Position numbers and translations under genes: made by a program
The notes under the pieces: generated by a model
The model's input: the letters and a program-made list of their open reading frames with translations, nothing else
Databases searched by the model: none
Told to the model about the DNA's origin: nothing
In this document: in pieces, positions 7,697 to 31,804 of the stretch
Layout of the letters: every line of letters starts with the position of its first letter
Numbering within the stretch: position 1 is the stretch's first letter
IMG/VR virus record: IMGVR_UViG_2617271072_000004
Span: 1-64,000 of that record
Origin: a virus
Taxonomy: Duplodnaviria; Heunggongvirae; Uroviricota; Caudoviricetes
Strand: one strand, 5' to 3'
DNA length: 64,000 nucleotides

Positions 7697-10684
7697 ATGA
7701 GCTTAAGCGATCAGGTGGTAATGGCCACCAGCATAGAAACGCTGATCGAGCTGCTAAAGAACCTGCCCGATTATGGGCGGGTTTCGTATGTGGTGACAGC
7801 GAAGGGAGACGAGGTAAAAACAGCGTTTGATATCGTCGATGCCTCAGCTCTTTTGGTATCCAATACTCTGGATGGGAAAATTAATCCTGACTATCCCCAG
7901 GAACTTCAGCCGCGCGACCGGACCCGCGCATCCAGCCTTCTTCAGGTTAACCAGATATCCAAAGATTTGCGGCCTGCTCAGCTTACCGATTCCGGTTTAT
8001 CCAGCCATGGCGCGCCGATAATTGGTGAGGACAATGCCGTTGAGTCAGGTAATGGACGGACCATGGGGATCATCAAAGCCTATCAGGACGGCAATGCGGA
8101 TCGGTATCGTGAGTACCTGATTGAACATGCGACCGAATTCGGCATACCTCCTGAAAAGGTTGAATCAATGACGGCTCCGGTACTGGTGCGCCGCCGGTTA
8201 ACTAAGGTTGACCGCGTTCAGTTTGCCAAGGACTCAAATATTTCTGATCTTCAGGAAATGGCAGCCAGTGAAAAGGCTTTTGTTGATGCCGACAGCATAA
8301 CACCGGCGATGATGGCGCTGTTTAACCCGTCAGAAAGCGGAGATCTGCTTAGCCGCAGTAATGACGCTTTTATCCGCGGATTCATGACGCAAGTTGGTGC
8401 CACACAGGCTGCTGGCCTTGTAACGGAAGATGGGCGACCAACACGGCAACTTGTAGACCGTATACAAAACGCGATCTTTGCCAAGGCATATAAGGATGCG
8501 CGCCTGGTAAGGATGGTTGCAGAAGAACCTGATCCGGATATGCGTAATGTTCTGACGGCGCTTAATGCGGCGGCCAATGATTTTGTCCAGATGCAGGCTT
8601 TATCAGGTGAAGCGCACAAGCAGGCTGTGACAACTATTGTTGATGGTATTGAAACAGCGGATAGCCTCGATAAAAAGGCGCTGGCGGCATTGAAAGATGC
8701 GGTAGACCTGGTAAGGCAATCGAAGGAGTCAGGCCAGCATATTACCGATGTTATTGCTCAGGGGGATATGTTCAGCGAAACGGCCCCGGAAGTGAAAGCA
8801 CTCGCGTTGTTCATCGTCGCGAATAACCGTAGCGCGAAGCGTATGGCCACCGCCTTTAAGTTGATGGCTCAACGTATCAATGATGAGTTACAGCACCAGG
8901 GCCAGGCGCTGGGGGATATGTTTGGCGGCGGCGATGTGTCGTTACAGGATATCCTTCGCCAGGTGTCTCAGGAACTGGAAAACGAAGGCATGCAAGGGAT
9001 ATCCGGCGGTCTTTTCGAGTCCGTTTCCGGCGGTAGTTACAACGGTGTTGCTCCGTATACCAGTTTGCTATTACATCGGGCATCCGGCATCAAAGACATT
9101 ATTCATCTGATCAGGCTGCTTTCCCGCACAGATCCCCAGGATGAACAGCTTGTACAAGTGCTTGCGCATTTTGTTCGAATGCCTGTTGCCGACGTGAAAA
9201 AATGGTGTCGATTATTCGGTATCAGCAATTCGTTACTTCGCGGCTTGTTAAATCACGCATCCTCCCTTGGGCGCGATGGCTTTGACGAGATAGCGCAGGC
9301 GATAAAAAACGGAGATATGCCACCAGCTATTGACTGGTTTTCCATTCGCCCAACCAGGGTGAAAGCATTCCTTAGCGCGGCGCATTCGGCATCACCATTG
9401 GCAGAAATGGTTCAGAGGTTGTCGCTCATATTCACAGACCATACCGCGTTGGGTGATCTGACTCTGGACGAGATGAAAGACGCCTCCATTCAGTGGGCCG
9501 ATCAACAAAATGAGGTTAACTCAGACTTCTTGCCAGCATTCAGGAAGGCCGTTAGTAAAGCGGATGATGCCCGTGGAATTCTGAAGGCATTTAAGGCATT
9601 GCAAAGTCGTGTTAATAAACATGTCGGTGATATCGATGGGGTAACGGCGGAAGGCCGGGATATCCTTAAAGAGCACGGCATAACGCCAGAGTTTATTGAT
9701 GAGATCAGGACTGATATGCAGCGTGAGGTCGTATCGTCCCTGCAAATCGTAGCCAGAGCGTTGGCGGATGCTAATCCGAAGAGTGCGGCCATTGTTAACC
9801 GGGTTATTGGTGATATTGAAGCATCGGAGGGCATGGGGGCGCTGAAACTCTTCCTTTCGCGAGCGTTTAATCCTAACGGCAATATTCTCCCTGGCATTAT
9901 TGGTGAGGCTAAAAAGTATGTCAGTGAAGAAGAACTTGAGCAGCTTGACCAACTACTTAAGCGATTCTCATATAATCCGCAGACACGCTGGCAAATGAAT
10001 CAGCGAAGTATGGGTTCGGTCCACGAGAAAGTGTTATCTGCCATGAACAGTGCGATCGCAAACTCATCCGTATCTGAAGAAAAAGCTCTTGAGTGGGCCG
10101 ACTCTTTTATCACAGAAGAAGTGGAAGAAGCCCGCGCTGGACAGAATGGTGGGATAGACCTGCGCAAGGAACTTGCTGATATTTATCGCCTGACCGGCGG
10201 GAAAATATCGACCTTATCAAAGGTAGTTCACCACCAGGGAAGGGCATATGCAAATCTAAATGGTGTTGTTGCTGTCAATTTGAACGATGAAAATGCAAGT
10301 GCACTGTGGCACGAGCTGGGTCATCATCTTGAGTACAGTAACCCTGGTTTGTTAGAGAAAGCCCGGTCATTCCTGAAGGCCAATGTTGAAGGGGATAAGC
10401 CATCTTTCGTCAATATCGGTGGGCGTGGCAAGCCTGAATGGTGCTTCAGATCTCGATTGAGTAATATTTATATGGCGAAGGTATACCCGCCAGCCTCAGT
10501 AAGTAACACCGGGAAAATTCGGCAGAAATCACCGACTATTTCCAAAACGTCAGCAACGGAAGTATTCTCTATGGCTCTTCAGTTGTATCATGACAAAGAG
10601 GCCGCTGCCGCATCACTGATGAATGGTGACGGATTGCTGGAACTGTTATTAGGTGTGGCAAAGGAGCTAAATAATGCAGATTAA
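7697..10684 (+). CDS. ddrB: DdrB, large dar-operon protein
   Basis: 995-aa ORF in P1 dar operon position. Confidence 0.7.
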   Translation: MSLSDQVVMATSIETLIELLKNLPDYGRVSYVVTAKGDEVKTAFDIVDASALLVSNTLDGKINPDYPQELQPRDRTRASSLLQVNQISKDLRPAQLTDSGLSSHGAPIIGEDNAVESGNGRTMGIIKAYQDGNADRYREYLIEHATEFGIPPEKVESMTAPVLVRRRLTKVDRVQFAKDSNISDLQEMAASEKAFVDADSITPAMMALFNPSESGDLLSRSNDAFIRGFMTQVGATQAAGLVTEDGRPTRQLVDRIQNAIFAKAYKDARLVRMVAEEPDPDMRNVLTALNAAANDFVQMQALSGEAHKQAVTTIVDGIETADSLDKKALAALKDAVDLVRQSKESGQHITDVIAQGDMFSETAPEVKALALFIVANNRSAKRMATAFKLMAQRINDELQHQGQALGDMFGGGDVSLQDILRQVSQELENEGMQGISGGLFESVSGGSYNGVAPYTSLLLHRASGIKDIIHLIRLLSRTDPQDEQLVQVLAHFVRMPVADVKKWCRLFGISNSLLRGLLNHASSLGRDGFDEIAQAIKNGDMPPAIDWFSIRPTRVKAFLSAAHSASPLAEMVQRLSLIFTDHTALGDLTLDEMKDASIQWADQQNEVNSDFLPAFRKAVSKADDARGILKAFKALQSRVNKHVGDIDGVTAEGRDILKEHGITPEFIDEIRTDMQREVVSSLQIVARALADANPKSAAIVNRVIGDIEASEGMGALKLFLSRAFNPNGNILPGIIGEAKKYVSEEELEQLDQLLKRFSYNPQTRWQMNQRSMGSVHEKVLSAMNSAIANSSVSEEKALEWADSFITEEVEEARAGQNGGIDLRKELADIYRLTGGKISTLSKVVHHQGRAYANLNGVVAVNLNDENASALWHELGHHLEYSNPGLLEKARSFLKANVEGDKPSFVNIGGRGKPEWCFRSRLSNIYMAKVYPPASVSNTGKIRQKSPTISKTSATEVFSMALQLYHDKEAAAASLMNGDGLLELLLGVAKELNNAD

Positions 10685-10982
10685 AATCGCAGCGCCATTA
10701 GGTGGAGATGCCATTATCGAATTTGATGATAATGAAGAAGTTTCCGGGCGTTTAAGCATTATCTCCGGAGACATTACCGAGGACATGATCGCTGAAGCCA
10801 TAGCTGGAGCAAATCCCAATAGCTATATGGGATTCGTTAACACCCTTGATGCTCCCGCAAGTGATGTTCTCCGAACGCTGCATCTTTACGCTGGCTGGTT
10901 TGTTGATTGGCCAGCAGTAGATGGTGGCGATGAGGACGACGACGATGATTTGGGTGATCATGTGGATCAGTTTGTATATTAG
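10674..10982 (+). CDS. hxr: Hxr-like acidic small protein
   Basis: 102 aa with acidic tail DGGDEDDDDD; position after ddrB. Confidence 0.55.
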   Translation: MQIKIAAPLGGDAIIEFDDNEEVSGRLSIISGDITEDMIAEAIAGANPNSYMGFVNTLDAPASDVLRTLHLYAGWFVDWPAVDGGDEDDDDDLGDHVDQFVY

Positions 10983-11188
10983 ATACTAACAGATCGTCTA
11001 TGTGGCTAGAATCGTTCGAGTTTAGCGATTAACGGAAGTTCTGGTCGATTATGATTAGTGCATATTCATGCACAGGCACACAAAATCTGGAGATATTGAT
11101 CAGCGTTTATGTATAGTTTGTAATATAAAAATCGCCTTGAACGGAGTTTGTGCGTTATGAGAATCAATCTTAACTCTGGAGTAAGATA

Positions 11189-11557
11189 GTGGACGCTTTG
11201 TCTGAGGTTTTCGTTAATAATTGGCTTCCTGGTATCTGCACATTTTTTTTTAGGGATCTTTTATTCTAATATTGTTGAAAAAAAGAAACTTAAACAGAAG
11301 TTAAAGAATGATATTCTTGAGATATTCATTCCTGTATTTAACCCCGGAAATGAAATCTCCATTGAAATTGCTGAGAATGCTTACAGGAATATGAATGGTA
11401 CGTTTCAGTTGTACAAGAGAATATATCCAGGTATGTTCAACAAAGAAGCAGAGCGTGAGCTAGACCGACTACTAAAAGACGGTTTCCTCATAAATGGAGA
11501 GGTTAATAAGCATTACTTTGAACCAACTAATATTGAGAGCCTGATTAAAAGATTATA
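11189..11557 (+). CDS. small membrane-anchored protein, frame interrupted at a T9 run
   Basis: Removing one T from 11242-11250 joins a GTG-started hydrophobic N-terminus to the 55-codon ORF 11390-11557. Confidence 0.3.
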
Positions 11558-11576
11558 ACTCATTTACCACAGTTAA

Positions 11577-11600
11577 AACCCCGCTTCATTGCGGGGTTTG
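11577..11600. terminator. hairpin terminator between convergent genes
   Basis: CCCCGC-TTCATT-GCGGGG flanked by A-run and T-run. Confidence 0.5.
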
Positions 11601-11764
11601 CATCATGCGCCAATAAAAGCTATTTATTCTGCGTCAAGTTGTAACATCTAATCCACTATTATATATCGTTATGTTTGGCATATAACAGATAATTAAATGA
11701 ATTATATCCAGATCTAATTTTATGCGGTTCTGGAACCCGGCTACGTACTATATAATAGAAAAAA

Positions 11765-13220
11765 TCAGAGTCTATCAAAAATAGAGCCTTTTCTCGGTAC
11801 AAATATTTTCTCATACAGTCGAGTAGCGTAATCATCTGTCATGCCTGAAACATAGTCGCAAATGACGCGCATTTTTTTATCATCACCTTTTGCTTCCTCT
11901 TGATTATATTTCTTTCGAGTTTCTGTCGGGAGAAAACGTATTGGGTCATTTGCCAGTACATTGAATAGTTCCACAATCAGTTTCTGACCTTTGAACTCTA
12001 ATAGTTGGACGTTTTCGTGCTGAATAACTTTGTTCCTAACCAGCTCAAAAATGGCTTTACGTAACTCTTCTACCGCGGCAGGAAGTGCCACTTTATAGCG
12101 TAAAAATTTTACTTTTGAAATCAGAGTTCTGCACTTCAAGCTTAACGCTAGTGATCATCAGATGAACAAGTGTCCCTATGCACTCCTTGCGTAGATAACT
12201 TTCGCCGAACAGTTTTTCAGCTACATCATCGGCTTTTAGATTAAACGAGTCGCATTGGCAAGCTGCAAATAAATGGGATTTGTCCTCGAAGTGCTCCTCC
12301 CACATTTTTTTGTCGATCATCTTCAGAGAAATTGCGTCTTCAAGATCATGGAGTGAGTAGGATATCTCATCAGCCAAGTCCATAATCGTTGTATCCAGTG
12401 CTTTATATATTGTTTCCTTGTGCTTATTCAACGCGGTAGTTTTTACCGTTTTGAATAACTTAACATCATCACTATCAAAAGGTTGGAGTGCGAATCTAAC
12501 AGTGTTCTCCTCAGAGTCCAGGTAACATTTCGGGGGCTTAAATTCGGATGATTTAAACAACCACTCATTGCTTCTTGGCTGTAACTGGCTGTAAGCCCTC
12601 TCATTGACGACCTCTGAATAGCTTGCTGGATATTTCAGTACGCCTAAAATAAGTCTACGGGTGGGATCCAGCCCATTGGTTTCGGTGTACTTATCCAGTT
12701 TGGAGAGTATACGCAGTGTCTGCCCGTTACCTTCAAAGCCGCCATAGGATCTCATGCAGTAGTTTAGTGCGACCTCACCACCATGACCGAAGGGGGGATG
12801 TCCTATATCATGAGCAAGGCAGATAGCCTGCATCAGGCTTGGGTCAGGTAAGAATTTACCCCCCTCATCTGTATCGCGCTTAGACAACTGAGACAAGATA
12901 CCGCCGCCAATTTGCGCTACTTCCATAGAGTGAGTTAGCCGCGTACGGTAGAAATCGCTTTCGCCCAATCCCAACACCTGCGTCTTCGATTGTAATCTCC
13001 TAAAAGCGGAAGAGTGGATTAACCGGGAAAGATCACGTTCATACTCCGACCTTATCTCATTCGGGCGGGTGGTATTGTACCCTTGACGCTCATACCAAGT
13101 ATTTTCTTTGCAGTGTGTCATACGTGTTCCTTTGGGCAGGATAGAGCAAGTCGCCTGCTTAATTGCTGAAGAAAGAAATACAAATTTGTAACGCTGTGGA
13201 TCTTCTTTATGCGTCCACAA
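11765..13220 (-). CDS. Dgt-family dGTP triphosphohydrolase (HD domain), apparent frameshift near 12101-12116
   Basis: RRLQSKTQV, RTRLTHSMEVAQ, HDIGHPPFGHGGE, FEGNGQ and C-terminal DYVSGMTDDYA motifs; ORFs 12093-13220 and 11765-12139 overlap in different frames. Confidence 0.85.
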
Positions 13221-13301
13221 TCAGTAAATATTGGATACTTGCAAGGTGCGCGAAACACTAAAGATTGTCAATTAATAATTAACACCTCTTATAGTTACTA
13301 G

Positions 13302-13330
13302 AAATAAAAATCCCCTGTATTAACAGGGGC
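13302..13330 (-). terminator. rho-independent terminator after ssb
   Basis: On minus strand CCCCTG-loop-CAGGGG followed by TTTTTATTT. Confidence 0.6.
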
Positions 13331-13369
13331 CTGTGTATGAACTATTTACAAATAACTCACAAGTTAACT

Positions 13370-13858
13370 CTAAAACGGAATATCGTCGTCAAAGTCCATT
13401 GGAGGTTCGTTATTGGCGCTGCTCTGAGGTTTGCCGCCACCGCTGTATTGCTGGTGGTTTTGAGATTGGTTTGATTGCCCCCAGCCATTTGAGGACTGTG
13501 AATCGTCGCGGCGGGCGCCGATCATTTGCATAGTTCCGCCCTGGCTGACGATAATTTCCGTCGTGTAACGTTCTACACCGGCGTCATCTGTCCACTTACG
13601 GGTTTTAAGTTTCCCTTCGATGTAGACCTGAGAACCTTTTCGTAAATACTCACTCGCAATTTCAGCAAGTTTCCCGAACAAAACGACTCTATGCCATTCT
13701 GTTTGCTCTTTCTGTTGGCCCGTTTGCTTGTCGCGCCATGATTCATTCGTTGCGATGCTGAGTCTTCCGACCGCTCCGCCATTTGGTATATACCTGATCT
13801 CCGGGTCTTGCCCCAGGGTACCAATCAGGATGACTTTGTTTACACCGCGTTGTGCCAC
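13370..13858 (-). CDS. ssb: single-stranded DNA-binding protein
   Basis: [20 protein letters not shown]... OB-fold N-terminus, Gly/Gln-rich linker, DDIPF tail. Confidence 0.95.
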
Positions 13859-13877: not shown

Positions 13878-13894
13878 AAATTAATTAGAGCAAT
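13878..13894 (-). promoter_or_regulatory. C1 operator-like 17-mer
   Basis: Reverse complement ATTGCTCTAATTAATTT vs P1 consensus ATTGCTCTAATAAATTT. Confidence 0.55.
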
Positions 13895-20600: not shown

Positions 20601-23600
20601 ATACGCCCGCATTCCGCTACGTGATGACACCGTAGATGAGCATGCACAAGACATGCTTTATGACTTCGTTGCCGCCGGGCGCGTAGCCAGCGCAATGGAC
20701 TCCGACTCCCACCGCAAAGAGGCGGCGCGTCGCCGGGTATTGTCGGAGTATTCAGATACCGGTACCGAAAAAGCAGAGAAGTATCCGTACTTTGAGGATA
20801 TGGGCTTCGACAGCGTGATCGCCGACGAAGGCCACAACTACCGCAATAGCTATAAAAATGGTCGCGAAGCGTCACAGCTGGCCTATCTGCCCACCAGCGC
20901 GGTGGCGCAATCGGCGCGAGATATGGCAATCAAAAACGCGTACCTGATGAAAAAGAATGGCGGGCGCGGACCGGTTCTCCTGACTGCAACGCCAGTCGTT
21001 AACACCCCGATCGATGCATACAACATGCTTTCTCATGTTCTGCCGAAAGAATACTGGCAGAAGATGGGGATCTACGGTCCTGATGACTTCGTTAAATTCT
21101 TCGGCAAGACCAGGCTGGAAACGGTACAGAAAATCAGCGGTGAAGTTGAAGAAAAAATGGCGCTGGTGGGCTTTGAAAACCTTGATGCGCTGCGCGGCAT
21201 ATTCCATCGCTGGACAACGCTTAAAACAGCGGAAGACGTTAAGGATACCGTGGAGATCCCGGAGCTGGACGAACACCAGCAGGATGCGCCACTTACTGAA
21301 GAACAACTGGCGGCGTATGAAGAATTGCGTCAGCAGGCGGAAGCGGCAGCCAAAGCCAACAATGGCGTAACGACCTCGGTCAATGAAGACGGCGTGATTG
21401 AGCACGAGAAAGCCCGTCCGATCTTCTCAATAATCAGGGATATGGACCGCGTATGTACTGACATGGACCTGTACTATCGCCGGATCACCTATCGTTTCCT
21501 GCCGGAGTACGCCGATGCGGTGCAGCAGCTGGCGGACAGTTTGCCTAAACAAGCCACCAGCGAAGACGACGACAGTGATGATTCAATCACGCAGCAATCG
21601 CAATACTCCCTGATAGATAAGGGCGAGTTTATTCAGTTGCAGGTTCCGGAAGCGTTCGAGCAGGAAGTGAATAAGCGCCTGGCCAGGTTTGGCATTGACG
21701 AACAGACCGTAACTCACCCCGTTACACCAAAATACGCGAAGCTGATCGCCACGCTGAAGGAGTTTTTCCCGGAAGGTAAGCAAATCATCTTCACCGATGA
21801 AAAAACGCAGCACCAGAAGCTCAAGCGCATTATCTGCAATGCTCTTAACCTTGAACCTTCAAAGGTGGGGATCCTGAATGCTCAGACGGTTGCCGAGGCA
21901 GGTAAAACCGGTAAGAAACTGAAAGCGGTTAAACCGCCGAAAGAGTTACCGGATGAACCAACAGATGCACAGATAGCGAAATACAACGAGCAAATGGCTC
22001 TGTATGACGCCTATATCGCGCAGCAAAATGAAATGTCGCTGGGCGGGCTGGAAAAGATTGCTGCCGACTTCCAGGAGGGACGGACTCCGATCATCATCTG
22101 CAACAAAAAGGCAGAGGTGGGTATCAACCTGCATCGAGGAACGACTGACATCCATCATCTGACGTTGCCATGGACACCAGCCAGTATCGCACAGCGTAAC
22201 GGTCGCGGTGCCCGAGTTGGCTCCAACCGTGCAAGCGTTCGCGTTCACTACTACTGCGGCAAGGGTTCTTTCGATGAATACCGACTGAAGACGCTGAAGC
22301 GTAAAGCAGGCTGGATCTCCGATATCCTCCGTTCAGATAAGTCAGAAATGGAGAACGCCGACGCCAACGATATGATCGAAATGCAGATGTATACCGCTAA
22401 GGATGATGGCGAACGTCTGGCAATGATGCAGGTTCAAATGGATAAGGCGAAAGCCGCGCAACGCGCTCGCCAGAAAGAACAGGCTACTATCGACCTTCAG
22501 AACTACATCAAGGCGCAGCACGCAGCTGGCGAGGATGTGGAGGTACTTACCGCTGAATTAGAGCGAAGCAAAGCGGAACTTGAAAAGACCACCGCCGAGG
22601 TAGCTAAATTCAAACAGGCGGTAATGGCCAAAGCAGCTGATAACGCAGACTGGAAAGCCCGCTGGGGTAGCGTCCATCACACAGACCGTACGTTGTTAGC
22701 ACAGTATCGCGCGTCGTTGAAAAGCGCCATTCAGCGCAAGGCTAATATCTCTCAAGCCATCTCCCGCTATGAGAAATTATTGAACCGTACTCAGAAGGCC
22801 GCGACGGATATCAAACGCCTGCGCCCGCTGGTGGAGGATGCAATAAATAAAGGCATTCTGGATGTTGATCCTGACCTGGTTAACCATGCGAGTGAGTTCC
22901 TTGTTATCGGCGATCGCTCATGGCGTGTAGGCCAATACTACGATTGTGCCGGTGATATCGTTCGCATTAAGTCGCTGGACTTCGACAGCCAGCGCGCAGA
23001 CGTGGAGATTATCTTTACCTTCAAAGGTACCAAATCGGGTAACTGGGATGTGAAGACGCTGGATAAACAGGTTGATGTAACTCCCGATGAAGATGCTGTT
23101 ATGCAGAAAATCAGTGGTGGCGTCTCCATCGCCGGGATTAACGACATCATTTCCTGTGACGATTTCTACCGTTTCCAGCAGCGCGGCATGATCAAAATCA
23201 CTGACTCATACGGCGTTCAGACTACAGAGTCAGGCTATAGCATCGATTTTGTTGGTACCTATTCGGACCCACTGAAGCATGCGGTTTACCCGGATCGCCG
23301 TGACGGCGCGCTGAAGTCGTCAATTGCAAAATGGGTGCTTGGTATGATGTCGGAAGGGAATAACCGCCAGATCCGTTCGGCAGAAACATTCCTGGTTGAA
23401 CTGTTTGGCTCCAATTATGGCGATGTAATCGCGTCATACGGAGATACGCTATCCCCTGAAGCAATTCAGGAGAAAATAGCGGATGCGATCGCCAGAATGC
23501 CGGAAAAAACAAGCCAGGGGGCTACTCGTAACGGGGATTCTGAACTTGAAGTCACCAATGCCATTTTCGGTACCAATGAGTTCCGGGCGTCAGATTATGA

Positions 23601-24438
23601 GATCACCACAGCACAGTTTGGCACCATTGGCATTTACAGCAATAAAGACGAGATCAAACAGTCAATGGACGCTGCAAGCGCGCGCATTGCAGCAGAACGC
23701 AAAGCCAATCTGAATCATGCAGTTTCCGCGCTGACTCAATCGTGGGTAACAGCAATCAGGGAGGCCGCCACCACAGGAAAAATCACACCGGCAATTGCGG
23801 ATGTCGTAAACGACGGCTCTAAATTTATGGATGCCTATAAAATGGATGCGGTGCAGTTGCCATCAGCCTATGGTCAACTCAGCTATCGCATGACCTACAA
23901 CCTGGTATCAATGTTTTCCGACCTTGCCATCCTTGGGCTGGTGGATCTTAACGAGGTTACGCCGGAATTGCTCAGCATGCGCAAGAATCATGTGGAGATA
24001 TTGCAGAGAATTAACACGGTTCTTGCCGGGCGCACCGATGAAGAGAAACAGGCCGACGCTGATCGGATAAACCTGGCCCTTGGCAACATCACGGAGGAAG
24101 AGATTGCCGCCAGAAACGAGAAACAAGAAGAGTTATCATCAATACAGGGTGATGCCACCAGCATAGCTCAGTCTCTTGGTCTGAATTATCGCGTATCCAC
24201 CGCCGACCTGAAGATGATGTACGCACCAAAATTCGCCGCTGGCGAGGTATTTGGGCTTCAGGAAGCCTCAGGCATGAAAGGCGTTCTTTTCCGTGCGAAA
24301 GACGCAATCAAGGCGAAATTCGGCGCTCGCTGGCTGCCAGCGAAGGCGAAGAACAGCGATTTCCCGGGTAACTGGTGGATTATCGAGACAAAACACAACG
24401 TGGCGGACGTTCTGGCCGTCATCCAACAATACGCATAA
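17671..24438 (+). CDS. darB: DarB antirestriction methyltransferase-helicase
   Basis: 2255 aa, the size of P1 DarB; N-terminal NVPF methylase-like motif, central DEGHNYRN and TATPVVNT helicase motifs. Confidence 0.9.
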   Translation: MNKLSMGVFRCSSVSEILKYISAITSHRAPIRYGVEKVEGKSYDRLRREANQKAIDLLNSLVDGATLTDEQRQILAGYTGEGGIGGSVSEYYTPKPIAEGVWEIMKLYGADVGNTLEPSAGTGVFNETKPVGTVMTATEISSVSGRINQLLHPEDSVQISPFEQLAVSTPNDSFDHVVGNVPFGGRDNTRNIDKPYAEETDMGSYFMLRMLDKIKPGGFMCVIVPPSIVSGSNMKRLRLRLSRKAEFLGAHRLPTGTFDANGTSTVVDVVLMRKHPAEMAEKIPLVDESTLESANVLWPTFISGKWFEKDGRRFVHGTQEKGFQGRIEVRADGQIDNQALKAKLIHRFESRIDWSLLDMAEPSPTADVVGEGEMRLINGVWQKYAGGRWIEADAGKELKIDAASYGADSWEALQRNLTTTEGRLGMTFTQMANVRDKYTTSISDDMVQLVDWINSQPEKYRERLYRGAMIGRMLIEYQDMKAAGHSAEQIEQQRLSLVSRLQAEIDRFGNPGRGPIAKLSGSGARAWFAFRGAIKLDGTISDELTGKLVTHDSSASYDSTSYQDTLRYLYSDLTRDPIQLDDFRLAFTGELPASDEELLNLLASTPGIAVSPYGGIVPFARATSGDINEIVAPKQEFLATLPDGPVKNNVLNQLAAIEEKRIKTPAENIRFKLNSRWFDRSVILEFLQENGYPDLRYVQSVQLEGDEMVSDTYHGGDGLFVGHRYGVVQRKDKETGEIRYEWDRKSGENATGFPAQLEKYLNGARIGGKDSATANGYREQMALLEDQFNKWIKTHDRYDELVAKYNDVFNSNIPYEHSGDPLGLKGLSGKRQPFDYQNSEVRRLSEDGRGILGFGTGLGKTTTALALEAFNYENGRSTRTAYVVPKSVLENWYYEAKEFLSEEAFSNYLFVGLDVLMDGDQIRQVPVLNENGKPVLGTDGTPVMRDALKLADEATITARMNAIPHSNYRAVVFTKEQYARIPLRDDTVDEHAQDMLYDFVAAGRVASAMDSDSHRKEAARRRVLSEYSDTGTEKAEKYPYFEDMGFDSVIADEGHNYRNSYKNGREASQLAYLPTSAVAQSARDMAIKNAYLMKKNGGRGPVLLTATPVVNTPIDAYNMLSHVLPKEYWQKMGIYGPDDFVKFFGKTRLETVQKISGEVEEKMALVGFENLDALRGIFHRWTTLKTAEDVKDTVEIPELDEHQQDAPLTEEQLAAYEELRQQAEAAAKANNGVTTSVNEDGVIEHEKARPIFSIIRDMDRVCTDMDLYYRRITYRFLPEYADAVQQLADSLPKQATSEDDDSDDSITQQSQYSLIDKGEFIQLQVPEAFEQEVNKRLARFGIDEQTVTHPVTPKYAKLIATLKEFFPEGKQIIFTDEKTQHQKLKRIICNALNLEPSKVGILNAQTVAEAGKTGKKLKAVKPPKELPDEPTDAQIAKYNEQMALYDAYIAQQNEMSLGGLEKIAADFQEGRTPIIICNKKAEVGINLHRGTTDIHHLTLPWTPASIAQRNGRGARVGSNRASVRVHYYCGKGSFDEYRLKTLKRKAGWISDILRSDKSEMENADANDMIEMQMYTAKDDGERLAMMQVQMDKAKAAQRARQKEQATIDLQNYIKAQHAAGEDVEVLTAELERSKAELEKTTAEVAKFKQAVMAKAADNADWKARWGSVHHTDRTLLAQYRASLKSAIQRKANISQAISRYEKLLNRTQKAATDIKRLRPLVEDAINKGILDVDPDLVNHASEFLVIGDRSWRVGQYYDCAGDIVRIKSLDFDSQRADVEIIFTFKGTKSGNWDVKTLDKQVDVTPDEDAVMQKISGGVSIAGINDIISCDDFYRFQQRGMIKITDSYGVQTTESGYSIDFVGTYSDPLKHAVYPDRRDGALKSSIAKWVLGMMSEGNNRQIRSAETFLVELFGSNYGDVIASYGDTLSPEAIQEKIADAIARMPEKTSQGATRNGDSELEVTNAIFGTNEFRASDYEITTAQFGTIGIYSNKDEIKQSMDAASARIAAERKANLNHAVSALTQSWVTAIREAATTGKITPAIADVVNDGSKFMDAYKMDAVQLPSAYGQLSYRMTYNLVSMFSDLAILGLVDLNEVTPELLSMRKNHVEILQRINTVLAGRTDEEKQADADRINLALGNITEEEIAARNEKQEELSSIQGDATSIAQSLGLNYRVSTADLKMMYAPKFAAGEVFGLQEASGMKGVLFRAKDAIKAKFGARWLPAKAKNSDFPGNWWIIETKHNVADVLAVIQQYA

Positions 24439-25157: not shown

Positions 25158-25239
25158 TAATCATTTAAAGCCCATATGATATGGGCTTAAACAACAGGAT
25201 CGATATACAGTGTTAGTTAAATATATAGGCGAGAGTTAT

Positions 25240-26250
25240 ATGGAAAAACCTTGGCCGGGCATGCACATTAGAACATCTTGTCTGGAGGATGGTTTCTTTA
25301 GAGCAACGCAACCAAAGTATCTTAATGATCCGTCGAGTGAGTCGCGACTTCTTCCATTTTTTAATAAATTTTCACCAGCCGATTACGCATGGGCTAGAAA
25401 TGAATTTAAGAAAATGCAACGAGATCCATCTTATGTCCCATCTATACAAGAGTTAGAGTATTATTTAAAACCTTGCGGGAAACGATACGGAGAGGATTTT
25501 CCACACTTGTTAATCAATGAAGGTTTTACCTCAATGGATTCATATGATGAATCTAAACTCCAAGAAATAGTAACGTACCTTAACGATTATTTAGTAGAAG
25601 CCGTAAGCTGTCATCTTGGTGTATTCTCTCTATCAAAAAGTGATTGCAATCTACACATGTGGACTCATTATGCATCGATAGGAAAGGGGTTTGCTGTAGT
25701 TTTCGATGAAACACACGATTTTTTTAAAATATATCGGCCGTGTGATGTTAGTTATAATCCAGAAGATAGAGCATCTGTAACCTATTATAAAGGCGCTGTG
25801 CGATTTAATGGCTATCCTGCGCCATCGAGGAATATAGATATAAAGAATAAAGATAATACATTGCATGGGATCTTAAATCGAGATCCAGTTCGCGAGCTTT
25901 TTATTAATAGGCTTCTTTATACAAAAGGTGAAGAGTGGCTTCCTGAAAATGAAAGTAGAATTATTTTTCCATTGGCTGATTGCGAGAGAAAAATAGGAAG
26001 CATTGTCTCTCCATCGATTGATGATTGCCTATTGAATGAGTATCCTGATGTTTTTCATGACTATCATGAAATTAACTTAAAGAAAATTCCTTTTTCTGCA
26101 TTCAAGCAAATTACCTTAGGGTATAACATGACTGAAAAAGATAAAAATATAATTTTAGATAAAGTTAGTTCGAATAAAGAATTGTCTCACGTCAACGTAT
26201 TACAATCAAAACTTGATATATACGGAAAGGTTGTGGTTAAGCCCATGTAA
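25240..26250 (+). CDS. DUF2971-like protein, AT-rich cargo gene
   Basis: VFSLSKSDCNLHMWTHYASIGKGFAVVF matches the FSxS...MWxHYA motif recalled for DUF2971; ORF track starts at GTG 25210, ATG 25240 preferred. Confidence 0.55.
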   Translation: MEKPWPGMHIRTSCLEDGFFRATQPKYLNDPSSESRLLPFFNKFSPADYAWARNEFKKMQRDPSYVPSIQELEYYLKPCGKRYGEDFPHLLINEGFTSMDSYDESKLQEIVTYLNDYLVEAVSCHLGVFSLSKSDCNLHMWTHYASIGKGFAVVFDETHDFFKIYRPCDVSYNPEDRASVTYYKGAVRFNGYPAPSRNIDIKNKDNTLHGILNRDPVRELFINRLLYTKGEEWLPENESRIIFPLADCERKIGSIVSPSIDDCLLNEYPDVFHDYHEINLKKIPFSAFKQITLGYNMTEKDKNIILDKVSSNKELSHVNVLQSKLDIYGKVVVKPM

Positions 26251-27178: not shown

Positions 27179-27439
27179 TTAGTGCATGATGTTTGCCATC
27201 TCATAGGCGTCAGCCAGTAACTCCATCTCTGACTTGTTCAGCAAGGTGAATTCTTTCTTGCCTCCAACCACACCATCGGCATGAACAGGGACCAGCCAGG
27301 GGTATTTTTCTCTTACTTCAGCCGGTGCTGCATGCTGGTGGTACCATCTACAAAGTGGCAACTGCTTTTTGTGACAACCCGGCGCGGTACGACCGGAGAT
27401 ATGGTGCAGAGACACCTCTTCAGATATTACTCCATGCAT
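27179..27439 (-). CDS. hypothetical ORF abutting the Tn3 truncation point
   Basis: 86-aa ORF; may be the remnant of a backbone gene. Confidence 0.3.
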   Translation of the reverse strand: MHGVISEEVSLHHISGRTAPGCHKKQLPLCRWYHQHAAPAEVREKYPWLVPVHADGVVGGKKEFTLLNKSEMELLADAYEMANIMH

Positions 27440-28458
27440 ATAGCAGGCAATGCAGGGGAGAGCGCCAATGCAGATTTATCCAGATCCTTCAGCGAGCGGA
27501 GCCGTTTTTTCTGCCCAATCTTTCTGGCGTCACGGATGATAACGGCCAGCATGGCGTCCAGAACGTCCAATGCATCATCCAGCGCCAGCGTTTCCCATGC
27601 AAGGACAAAGGCAACCAGAACCGCCATCCTTTTCTGCGGTGACATCCTGGCAATATTGAACACCGAAGTCATACCAGCATAACGTGCGAGATTTTTCAGG
27701 CGCACAGCCGGGAGTGTACTCAGGTTTTCAGCATGCAGGCCAAAATCGTTCAGAGTTTTCCAGCGTTCAATTGCTTCATTAAACGCCGGACCACTGATGG
27801 TCACAGGGCCCTTTTTCAGTGATTCCAGTAAAGACAGGCGGCTGCAATCAGTTGGCCCCAGCAGCATCTCCAGCTGTGAACGCTGTTCGGCTGACGGTAT
27901 CAGTGCCAGTTTGTTCCACAGGCGCAACGTCGCCTTTTCCCTTACCTCTGAAATCAACCGGGTCAGCGTAGTGGCTCCGGGGAGAATAATACGATGTTGC
28001 ATAAGCCACCCTGTCGCCAGATCGAAAAGCAGGCCAGGACGTTCGTTGCTTATCCAGCTCCGGGTATATAAAAGACGGGTAAGGCGAAATGTCCAGGGCC
28101 AGGCAAATTCACGATACTGATAGTGCTGACGTATCAGCGCTGCATGCTCACGGCGGGTATTTTCCCTCTGACCGTATTCTGCAAGAACGGTGATATCACG
28201 AATCCCGAGCTGTCTGGCGGTAAAATGCCGGACGCCGGAAGGAATATGATTCATATCGGTGAGGAAGGTGCCCAGAAAACGGACACATCCAATTTGCAGG
28301 GCAATGCCCAGACGGTTGTGATCACCTCTGCTTTTTCCGATAAATTCCTTGTCTGCTTCATCAAGGTGAAAATATCGTGCCAGCTGAAGCTCATCCGGTT
28401 CACCGGTGAATCTGCCATAGCTTTCAGTCTGCTCAGTGGTCAGAAAGTCAACGGGCAT
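27427..28458 (-). pseudogene. tnpA: Tn3 transposase, N-terminal ~340 aa only
   Basis: MPVDFLTTEQTESYGRFTGEPDELQLARYFHLDEADKEF... Full TnpA is ~1000 aa. Confidence 0.9.
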
Positions 28459-29180
<722 letters not shown>

Positions 29181-29341
29181 TACGATAGGTTAATGTCATG
29201 ATAATAATGGTTTCTTAGACGTCAGGTGGCACTTTTCGGGGAAATGTGCGCGGAACCCCTATTTGTTTATTTTTCTAAATACATTCAAATATGTATCCGC
29301 TCATGAGACAATAACCCTGGTAAATGCTTCAATAATATTGA

Positions 29342-30214
<873 letters not shown>

Positions 30215-30771: not shown

Positions 30772-31804
30772 CTAGTCGCCATCTTCCAGCAGACGCACCA
30801 TTGCCCCCGTTTCACTATCCAGGTTACGAATGTAGTTCATGACAATATTTACGTTGGTCCAGCCACCAGCTTGCATGATCTCCGGTATTGAAACTCCGGC
30901 GCGGGCCATATCTCGCGCGGCACCGACACGGGCACTATGTCCAGACCAGGCCAGGTATCGCTGACCAGAGTCATCTTTTGCCCCGTAAATCAATCGGTGA
31001 GTTGCTTCAAAAATCCCTTCCAAGGCGCGAGTTGATAGCTGGCTGGTGGATGATGGCGCGGCAACACCATTTTTCTGACCCGGCAAAACAGGTAGTTATT
31101 CGGATCATCAGCTACACCAGAGACGGAAATCCATCGCTCGACCAGTTTAGTTACCCCCAGGCTAAGTGCCTTCTCTACACCTGCGGTACTAACCAGCGTT
31201 TTCGTTCTGCCAATATGGATTAACATTCTCCCACCGTCAGTACGTGAGATATCTTTAACCCTGATCCTGGCAATTTCGGCTATACGTAACAGGGTGTTAT
31301 AAGCAATCCCCAGAAATGCCAGATTACGTATATCCTGGCAGCGATCGCTATTTTCCATGAGTTGAACGAACCTGGTCGAAATCAGTGCGTTCGAACGCTA
31401 GAGCCTGTTTTGCACGTTCACCGGCATCAACGTTTTCTTTTCGGATCCGCCGCATAACCAGTGAAACAGCATTGCTGTCACTTGGTCGTGGCAGCCCGGA
31501 CCGACGATGAAGCATGTTTAGCTGGCCCAAATGTTGCTGGATAGTTTTTACTGCCAGACCGCGCGCCTGAAGATATAGAAGATAATCGCGAACATCTTCA
31601 GGTTCTGCGGGAAACCATTTCCGGTTATTCAACTTGCACCATGCCGCCCACGACCGGCAAACGGACAGAAGCATTTTCCAGGTATGCTCAGAAAAACGCC
31701 TGGCGATCCCTGAACATGTCCATCAGGTTCTTGCGAACCTCATCACTCGTTGCATCGACCGGTAATGCAGGCAAATTTTGGTGTACGGTCAGTAAATTGG
31801 ACAT
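30772..31804 (-). CDS. cre: Cre tyrosine recombinase, reading frame broken three times
   Basis: MSNLLTVHQNLPALPVDATSDEVRKNLMDMFRDRQAF... Indels vs canonical cre at runs 31692-31696, 31382-31383, 31070-31074. Confidence 0.9.

What the first reader, a model, noticed from the sequence alone, without database searches (positions are those of the whole stretch)
10983..13335. Dgt-family dGTPase island in place of the P1 IS1/isa region
Between hxr and ssb, where P1 carries IS1 with isaA/isaB, there is an AT-rich block with a minus-strand HD-domain dGTP triphosphohydrolase (all Dgt hallmark motifs present). Stand-alone dGTPases are known anti-phage defences acting by nucleotide depletion. A temperate phage-plasmid carrying one suggests exclusion of competing phages. 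The gene shows one frame break at a homopolymer, probably artefactual.
Basis: partly seen in the sequence, partly recalled or inferred. Interest (0 to 1): 0.7.

Follow-up and report, generated by a model that had tools for sequence, protein, structure and literature searches.

The report
Known anti-phage dGTPase island on P1-like plasmid
A P1-like phage-plasmid carries, at a known variable spot between hxr and ssb, a two-gene AT-rich insert whose main gene is an anti-phage dGTP-degrading enzyme; the insert is already annotated in dozens of plasmids and noted in papers, so the finding is correct but ordinary.

Summary
Window 10983-13371 is an AT-rich (39.8% vs 48.5% GC) insert that starts right after the hxr stop and ends at the ssb stop, where P1 has isaA-IS1-isaB.

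Removing one A at 12102 makes the dGTPase 100% identical to WP_000148486.1, which RefSeq names "anti-phage deoxyguanosine triphosphatase". It passes NCBIfam NF041026 (571 bits, cut-off 400) and fails the housekeeping Dgt model (143 bits, cut-off 405). It is 57.8% identical to the validated Shewanella Sp-dGTPase (PDB 9P8W). It is 80% identical to a chromosomal allele of the same group as the validated E. coli G177 enzyme. The catalytic residues are conserved.

The same island (at least 99% identical) is on 53 PLSDB plasmids, in 64 of 5426 complete E. coli genomes and in one phage record. It was described in 2019 as hot spot RD-2, and a 2025 survey lists dGTPase as a common defence gene on P1-like elements.

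The frame break is probably a sequencing artefact. The window has homopolymer indels throughout, and they also break the portal gene and cre.

Verdict: real, correctly interpreted, already known.

The parts
10674..10982 (+). hxr (left conserved flank); the island starts right after its stop codon
10983..13371 (.). AT-rich variable insert (39.8% GC) at the P1 hot spot RD-2, in place of P1 isaA-IS1-isaB; no flanking direct or inverted repeats
11189..11558 (+). 122-aa gene of unknown function (PHROG 26730): N-terminal hydrophobic helix followed by a small helical domain; broken in this window by an extra T in the T9 run at 11243
11579..11596. G+C-rich hairpin (CCCCGC-aatgaa-GCGGGG) with short T runs, lying between the two convergent genes; a likely bidirectional terminator. 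Read by eye from the sequence; the scan did not report it.
11765..13121 (-). anti-phage dGTPase gene; 451 aa and identical to WP_000148486.1 once the extra A is removed; as the sequence stands it is split after codon 340
12102..12106 (.). A5 run (T5 on the coding strand) with one base more than in all intact copies examined; this causes the frame break and would remove the HD_assoc domain (residues 345-437)
13312..13329 (-). intrinsic-terminator-like hairpin with a T run just downstream of ssb and inside the island; it separates the dGTPase from ssb transcription
13370..13858 (-). ssb (right conserved flank)
13878..13894 (-). C1 repressor operator upstream of ssb (Ossb/Op21, 1 mismatch to the consensus); no C1 operator lies inside the island

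Best explanation
The window is a P1-like phage-plasmid (Punavirus). Between hxr and ssb lies hot spot RD-2, where P1-like elements carry different cargo. Here it holds a 2.4-kb horizontally acquired AT-rich cassette with two convergent genes. The main gene is a stand-alone HD-domain dGTP triphosphohydrolase of the anti-phage dGTPase family (Tal et al. 2022; NCBIfam NF041026).

By homology, the enzyme forms an oligomer. It cleaves dGTP to deoxyguanosine and triphosphate at an H...HD...D metal site with an H/E catalytic dyad. This starves an infecting phage of dGTP and blocks its DNA replication. Carried by a plasmid prophage, it would protect the lysogen, and so the element itself, from competing lytic phages.

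The gene has its own Shine-Dalgarno sequence. It is separated from the C1-repressed ssb by a terminator and has no C1 operator. It is therefore probably transcribed on its own in the lysogen.

The single-base frame break at 12102 is most likely a homopolymer sequencing or assembly error, not a real truncation.

Shown here: sequence identity, family membership, conserved catalytic residues, location, distribution, and the window-wide indel pattern.

Inferred: enzyme activity, the defence phenotype of this allele, expression in the lysogen, and the artefact status of the frameshift.
For: - Identity: the repaired ORF is 100% identical to WP_000148486.1, 'anti-phage deoxyguanosine triphosphatase'.
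- Family models: NF041026 571 bits against cut-off 400, and NF003701 562 against 383. PADLOC dGTPase E = 1.7e-148. Pfam HD and HD_assoc.
- Validated relatives: full-length match to PDB 9P8W (Sp-dGTPase), E = 3e-158 and 57.8% identity. P1 D105 aligns with Sp D101, whose mutation to alanine abolishes defence. 80.4% identity to an E. coli chromosomal allele that is 98.5% identical to the validated G177 enzyme over the N-terminal 133 aa.
- Published mechanism: dGTP becomes undetectable and dG rises in Sp-dGTPase cells. Sp-dGTPase alone hydrolyses dGTP in vitro.
- Hot spot and distribution: P1, P7 and 813R1 carry other cargo between hxr and ssb. The same island is on 53 PLSDB plasmids, in 64 of 5426 complete E. 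coli genomes and in phage vB_EcoM-673R5. 484 of the 5426 genomes carry the ddrB-hxr marker, so about 13% of P1-like elements have the island.
- Literature: Venturini 2019 describes RD-2 of pJIE250-3 as '2 orfs including putative phosphohydrolase'. A 2025 survey found dGTPase to be common on E. coli P1-like phage-plasmids.
- Artefact: about 18 single-base indels in A/T runs of 5 or more across the window. 8 of 45 conserved genes are broken, including portal and cre. In the island, indels outnumber substitutions 3 to 1.
Against: - As the sequence stands, the gene is broken after codon 340 and would lack the HD_assoc domain. No reads are available to prove the error.
- No convincing sigma-70 promoter was found upstream of the dGTPase, so expression in the lysogen is not shown.
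- This exact allele has not, to my knowledge, been tested for defence. No paper in the searched library reports such a test.
- It is unexplained how a 90-100 kb dsDNA phage tolerates its own dGTP-depleting enzyme during lytic growth.
Confidence: 0.85

Rival explanations
1. The frameshift is real. In this particular element the dGTPase, and the neighbouring 122-aa gene, are pseudogenes in a decaying plasmid prophage that no longer defends.
For: The sequence as given carries the break. Several other genes, including portal and cre, are also broken, as would be expected in a degenerating prophage. A few public copies of the island have no annotated dGTPase CDS (H34 and H57). The phage record ON470615.2 also has the gene split, though at other sites.
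Against: The indels lie mostly in A/T homopolymers of 5 or more bases, and most are +1. That is the signature of a sequencing error. Meanwhile the broken genes remain about 99% identical to intact relatives, with no other decay such as deletions or accumulated in-frame stops. More than 100 other copies are intact at 12102.
Confidence: 0.13
2. The enzyme is a nucleotide-pool or housekeeping dGTPase that P1 uses for its own replication or mutation-rate control. On this reading it is not a defence gene.
For: dGTPase homologues are widespread and many have unknown roles. Sp-dGTPase is active on its own in vitro, without a phage trigger.
Against: It fails the housekeeping Dgt model: 143 bits against a cut-off of 405, and every 'equivalog' dGTPase model also scores below its cut-off. 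Only about 13% of P1-like elements carry it, so it is accessory and not part of the core. It sits in an AT-rich cargo hot spot. Its closest characterised relatives are validated defence enzymes.
Confidence: 0.04
3. The dGTPase and the 122-aa membrane-anchored protein form a two-gene system. The small protein could be a sensor, a regulator or an antidote, by analogy with CloA-CloB (Clover).
For: In all 52 PLSDB plasmids that carry the 122-aa gene, it accompanies this island. The family is conserved across several gammaproteobacterial genera.
Against: Homologues of the 122-aa protein in Salmonella, Yersinia, Rheinheimera, Marinomonas, Vibrio and Enterobacter have no dGTPase nearby; tblastn was negative for the four contexts tested that way, and the gene tables show none in the others. 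Chromosomal E. coli dGTPases 80% identical to this one lack the small gene. The validated dGTPases work as single cloned genes. The two genes are convergent, so they are not an operon. The small protein has no nucleotidyltransferase motif and no fold match.
Confidence: 0.04

Closest known systems
WP_000148486.1, 'anti-phage deoxyguanosine triphosphatase' of E. coli P1-like plasmids (e.g. pEND_Eco 12053-2 NZ_CP126930.1; pJIE250-3 NZ_MN510445.1)
   Same: 100% protein identity after removing one base. The whole 2.35-kb island is 99.4-99.8% identical and sits in the same hxr-ssb position.
   Different: The window copy has three homopolymer length differences (11243, 11758, 12102) and one substitution (11255). 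Two of them break the two genes.
Sp-dGTPase of Shewanella putrefaciens CN-32 (Tal et al. 2022; PDB 9P8W)
   Same: Same family and architecture (HD plus HD_assoc). 57.8% identity end to end, with identical HD motif and H/E dyad. It is a stand-alone single-gene defence that depletes dGTP.
   Different: It comes from a different genus, and 42% of residues differ. Phage range, trigger and oligomeric state have not been tested for the P1 allele.
Ec-dGTPase of E. coli G177 (validated in Tal et al.) and its chromosomal relatives (WP_057061554.1)
   Same: About 80% protein identity. Both are found in E. coli and named by the same NCBIfam model.
   Different: It is chromosomal rather than on a P1-like plasmid: the relative examined (WP_057061554.1, strain ABWA45) sits in an island with a DNA adenine methylase and 7-deazaguanine-type genes. 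It has no 122-aa neighbour.
E. coli housekeeping Dgt (PDB 4X9E/6OIY; NCBIfam NF003429)
   Same: Same HD-domain dNTP triphosphohydrolase superfamily and the same catalytic chemistry.
   Different: Only the N-terminal ~110 residues align (E = 6e-24). The score of 143 bits is far below the cut-off of 405. It is a different subfamily and a core chromosomal gene.
Clover CloA-CloB (10.1101/2025.07.09.663793)
   Same: CloA is a defence dGTPase with the same fold and active site.
   Different: Clover needs an adjacent nucleotidyltransferase, CloB, and none is present here. The match to CloA (9P8S-V) covers only the N-terminal part (query residues 22-168), with E around 1e-23.

Membership tests
Anti-phage dGTPase (Tal et al. 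2022; NCBIfam NF041026; PADLOC/DefenseFinder 'dGTPase') | Whole-protein score above the curated family cut-off | tested here: met
   NF041026 571.4 bits against 400. NF003701 562.2 against 383. PADLOC PDLC02374 E = 1.7e-148.
Anti-phage dGTPase (Tal et al. 2022; NCBIfam NF041026; PADLOC/DefenseFinder 'dGTPase') | At least 45% identity to Sp-dGTPase over at least 90% of the length (the working criterion of Tal et al. for defensive homologues) | tested here: met
   57.8% identity. The alignment covers residues 16-451 of 451 and 11-462 of 462.
Anti-phage dGTPase (Tal et al. 2022; NCBIfam NF041026; PADLOC/DefenseFinder 'dGTPase') | HD-domain active site: metal-binding H...HD...D and the H/E catalytic dyad | tested here: met
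   H64, H104-D105, H113/E116 and the ADEISY motif are conserved and aligned with 9P8W. Sp D101 corresponds to P1 D105. Pfam HD and HD_assoc both match.
Anti-phage dGTPase (Tal et al. 2022; NCBIfam NF041026; PADLOC/DefenseFinder 'dGTPase') | Accessory gene on a mobile element or defence island, with patchy distribution | tested here: met
   It lies in an AT-rich cargo hot spot of a phage-plasmid. 64 of 5426 E. coli genomes carry it, which is about 13% of those with a P1-like element.
Anti-phage dGTPase (Tal et al. 2022; NCBIfam NF041026; PADLOC/DefenseFinder 'dGTPase') | Intact open reading frame | tested here: inconclusive
   It is broken by +1 A at 12102 in this window and intact in all reference copies examined. 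The window-wide homopolymer indel pattern points to an artefact, but no reads are available.
Anti-phage dGTPase (Tal et al. 2022; NCBIfam NF041026; PADLOC/DefenseFinder 'dGTPase') | Hydrolyses dGTP and lowers phage plating efficiency | not testable with these tools
   Shown only for homologues: Sp, Ec G177, Ms and Pl.
Housekeeping Dgt (E. coli dgt, NCBIfam NF003429) | Score above the equivalog cut-off, with full-length similarity | tested here: not met
   142.8 bits against a cut-off of 405. Only residues 13-124 align to 4X9E.
Clover (CloA dGTPase + CloB nucleotidyltransferase) | Adjacent CloB nucleotidyltransferase gene in an operon with the dGTPase | tested here: not met
   The only other gene in the island is a convergent 122-aa protein with no Pfam, NCBIfam or PADLOC hit.

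The most novel reading that the evidence does not exclude
The P1-borne allele may be more than generic lysogen protection. A 90-100 kb dsDNA phage that encodes a dGTP-depleting enzyme must either keep it silent or inhibited during its own lytic replication, or use it to shape the lysis-lysogeny outcome or plasmid stability. The always-linked 122-aa membrane-anchored protein could be part of such self-immunity or be a separate exclusion factor. The first possibility is unlikely, because its homologues elsewhere lack dGTPase neighbours. None of this has been tested for this allele.
Probability: 0.08. Interest if true: 0.5.

Novelty: already known. Interest (0 to 1): 0.12.

Why it matters
It matters little beyond confirmation. 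The result shows that the first-stage reader can recognise a defence gene and a cargo hot spot from raw sequence. The gene, its family, its anti-phage role and its presence on P1-like phage-plasmids are all already in RefSeq annotation and in the literature. The remaining open points are modest: whether this exact allele defends, and against which phages; how P1 tolerates the enzyme during induction; and what the linked 122-aa protein does.

Tried and rejected
- Two-gene system with the 122-aa neighbour. I searched for its homologues and read six other genomic contexts. tblastn with the dGTPase against four of those contexts (Salmonella, Rheinheimera and Yersinia genomes, plus one metagenome contig) found nothing. 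Rejected.
- Function of the 122-aa protein. There was no hit in Pfam, NCBIfam or PADLOC, and only an unknown-function PHROG. The AlphaFold model is helical with pLDDT 74. Foldseek against the PDB gave nothing below E = 1. The afdb50 library was unavailable. This led nowhere.
- Transposon-like borders. No flanking direct or inverted repeats were found. The junction lies exactly at the hxr stop codon, so exchange by recombination is more likely than transposition.
- C1 control of the dGTPase. There is no C1 operator inside the island; the nearest is Ossb at 13878-13894.
- Own promoter. The consensus scan found no sigma-70-like site upstream of the gene on the minus strand. Unresolved.
- Programmed frameshifting at 12102. 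Rejected, because all other copies examined lack the extra base, so it is not an evolved feature.
- Housekeeping Dgt membership. Rejected.

Full report
**What is there.** The window is a P1-like phage-plasmid. Its flanks match Punavirus genomes (P1, P7, SJ46, RCS47 and others) at 96-98% identity. hxr ends at 10982 and ssb occupies 13858-13370 on the minus strand. Similarity to P1 and its relatives stops at 10981 and resumes at 13372. The alignment of the left junction shows that the P1-like elements diverge at or just after the hxr stop codon: the window and 813R1 at the stop itself, while P1 and P7 still share some sequence beyond it. In P1 this interval holds isaA, IS1 and isaB. In P7 it holds the porin gene nmpC. 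In vB_EcoM-813R1 it holds two unknown ORFs.

The insert in the window is AT-rich: 39.8% GC against 48.5% for the rest. It has no terminal repeats.

**Gene content.** The island holds two convergent genes.

- On the minus strand is a dGTPase with its ATG at 13121 and its stop at 11765. It appears as two ORFs.

Compared with intact copies, the window differs in the island at four sites:

| Position | Difference in the window |
|---|---|
| 11243 | one extra T (T9 run) |
| 11255 | one substitution |
| 11758 | one missing A (A6 run) |
| 12102 | one extra A (A5 run) |

Deleting the extra A at 12102 gives a 451-aa protein that is 100% identical to WP_000148486.1.

Just downstream of ssb, inside the island, is a terminator-like hairpin with a T run (13329-13312). 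A second G+C-rich hairpin (11579-11596) lies between the two convergent genes (read). The only nearby C1 operator is the one in front of ssb (13878-13894); none lies in the island.

**What the main gene is.**

- Family models: the protein scores 571 bits on NCBIfam NF041026, "anti-phage deoxyguanosine triphosphatase" (cut-off 400). It scores 143 bits on the E. coli housekeeping Dgt model NF003429 (cut-off 405). It matches the PADLOC dGTPase model at E = 1.7e-148. It has Pfam HD and HD_assoc domains.
- Solved structures: the best match is 9P8W (E = 3e-158, full length). This is the crystal structure of the Shewanella putrefaciens CN-32 dGTPase, the enzyme used to establish the defence (10.1101/2025.07.09.663793; 10.1101/2021.04.26.441389).
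- Identity to Sp-dGTPase is 57.8%. This is above the 45% that Tal et al. used to delimit defensive homologues.
- Active site: Sp D101, whose mutation to alanine abolished defence, aligns with D105 here. H64, H104, H113 and E116 are also conserved.
- E. coli relatives: the protein is 80.4% identical to a chromosomal E. coli allele. That allele is 98.5% identical to the validated G177 enzyme over the 133 residues given in the paper's Table S5.
- Housekeeping Dgt aligns only over the N-terminal ~110 residues.
- Clover is excluded because there is no CloB partner.

**How it most likely works.** This is by homology and is not shown here. The enzyme hydrolyses dGTP to deoxyguanosine and triphosphate. 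In cells expressing Sp-dGTPase, dGTP was undetectable during T7 infection and deoxyguanosine rose. The purified enzyme is active on its own. T7 escape mutants map to genes 5.7 and 0.7, whose products modify the host RNA polymerase. This suggests that activity in vivo is tied to interference with host transcription.

On a plasmid prophage the gene would protect the lysogen against other phages. The terminator after ssb, the gene's own Shine-Dalgarno sequence and the absence of a C1 operator suggest independent expression. No clear promoter was found, however, so this step is inferred.

**The frame break.** I aligned the window to an intact relative, NZ_CP126930.1. The alignment shows about 18 single-base length differences in A/T runs of 5 or more, most of them extra bases in the window. 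8 of 45 conserved genes are broken. They include the 569-aa gene at the prt (portal) position upstream of pro, cre, and several genes annotated only as hypothetical. The broken genes otherwise remain about 99% identical to intact copies.

The island is intact in nearly all of the 53 plasmid copies and 64 genome copies. This pattern fits a homopolymer sequencing error far better than simultaneous real inactivation of essential genes. Without reads it cannot be proven. If the break were real, the product would end after residue 340 plus three foreign residues. It would then lose the HD_assoc domain (residues 345-437).

**The second gene.** The 122-aa protein has an N-terminal hydrophobic helix and a conserved basic and helical remainder.

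- It matches only PHROG 26730, of unknown function.
- Its model has no fold match.
- In PLSDB it occurs only together with this island.
- Homologues of 57-82% identity occur in Salmonella, Enterobacter, Yersinia, Vibrio, Marinomonas and Rheinheimera. They sit in varied mobile-element or defence-like neighbourhoods, never beside a dGTPase.
- The chromosomal E. coli dGTPases lack it.

It is therefore most likely an independent cargo gene.

**Novelty.** The island was described in 2019. Venturini et al. define hot spot RD-2 as P1 21,540-24,243 (isaA-IS1-isaB). They report "2 orfs including putative phosphohydrolase" at 21,420-23,805 of pJIE250-3 (PMC6906374). That plasmid is hit H27 here.

Since Tal et al., RefSeq names the gene as an anti-phage dGTPase. 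A 2025 survey of 846 P1-like contigs found that E. coli P1-like phage-plasmids commonly carry dGTPase or CapRel systems (10.1101/2025.09.12.675607). In complete E. coli genomes, 64 of 5426 carry the island, and 484 carry the adjacent ddrB-hxr marker.

The finding is real and correctly read, but already known. The only untested points are the phenotype of this exact allele, how the phage tolerates it, and the role of the small neighbour gene.

Noticed in passing
window 11189-11558 (+): A conserved 122-aa membrane-anchored protein of unknown function (PHROG 26730) always travels with this island on P1-like plasmids. Elsewhere it occurs alone in mobile-element or defence-like contexts, next to Mrr_cat, 5'-nucleotidase or Vpar_1526 genes. 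It has no family or fold assignment.
   Followed up: yes
window-wide, e.g. 16697 (prt/portal), 30772-31804 (cre), 55218-57170: Single-base indels, mostly in A/T homopolymers and mostly extra bases, break 8 of 45 conserved P1 genes. The window appears to come from an unpolished, error-prone assembly, so any frame break in it should be distrusted.
   Followed up: yes
window 27427-30214: A Tn3-family remnant lies in the res-mod hot spot next to cre: a truncated transposase N-terminus (DUF4158), a resolvase and a class A beta-lactamase (blaTEM-like). It resembles Tn2 of P7.
   Followed up: partly
window 25210-26250 (+): A 346-aa DUF2971 protein matches the PADLOC candidate defence family PDC-S31 (E = 2e-16). 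It is a possible second defence-type cargo gene in the neighbouring hot spot.
   Followed up: no
L002 1938-3789 (phage vB_EcoM-813R1, same hxr-ssb hot spot): Two overlapping ORFs (356 and 262 aa) occupy the same hot spot in another P1-like phage. They have no Pfam or PADLOC hit and are uncharacterised cargo that may be worth a look.
   Followed up: partly
L008 1788-2485 (pTetA_020022 and five similar plasmids): In some P1-like plasmids an IS1 abuts the 122-aa gene directly, and the upstream antirestriction region (ddrB, hxr) is deleted. IS1 activity recurs at this locus, as in P1 itself.
   Followed up: partly
L007 8896-13072 (E. coli ABWA45 chromosome): The chromosomal dGTPase that is 80% identical sits beside a DNA adenine methylase, an 8-oxoguanine glycosylase-like gene and a 7-cyano-7-deazaguanine synthase-like gene. 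This suggests a DNA-modification or defence island.
   Followed up: no
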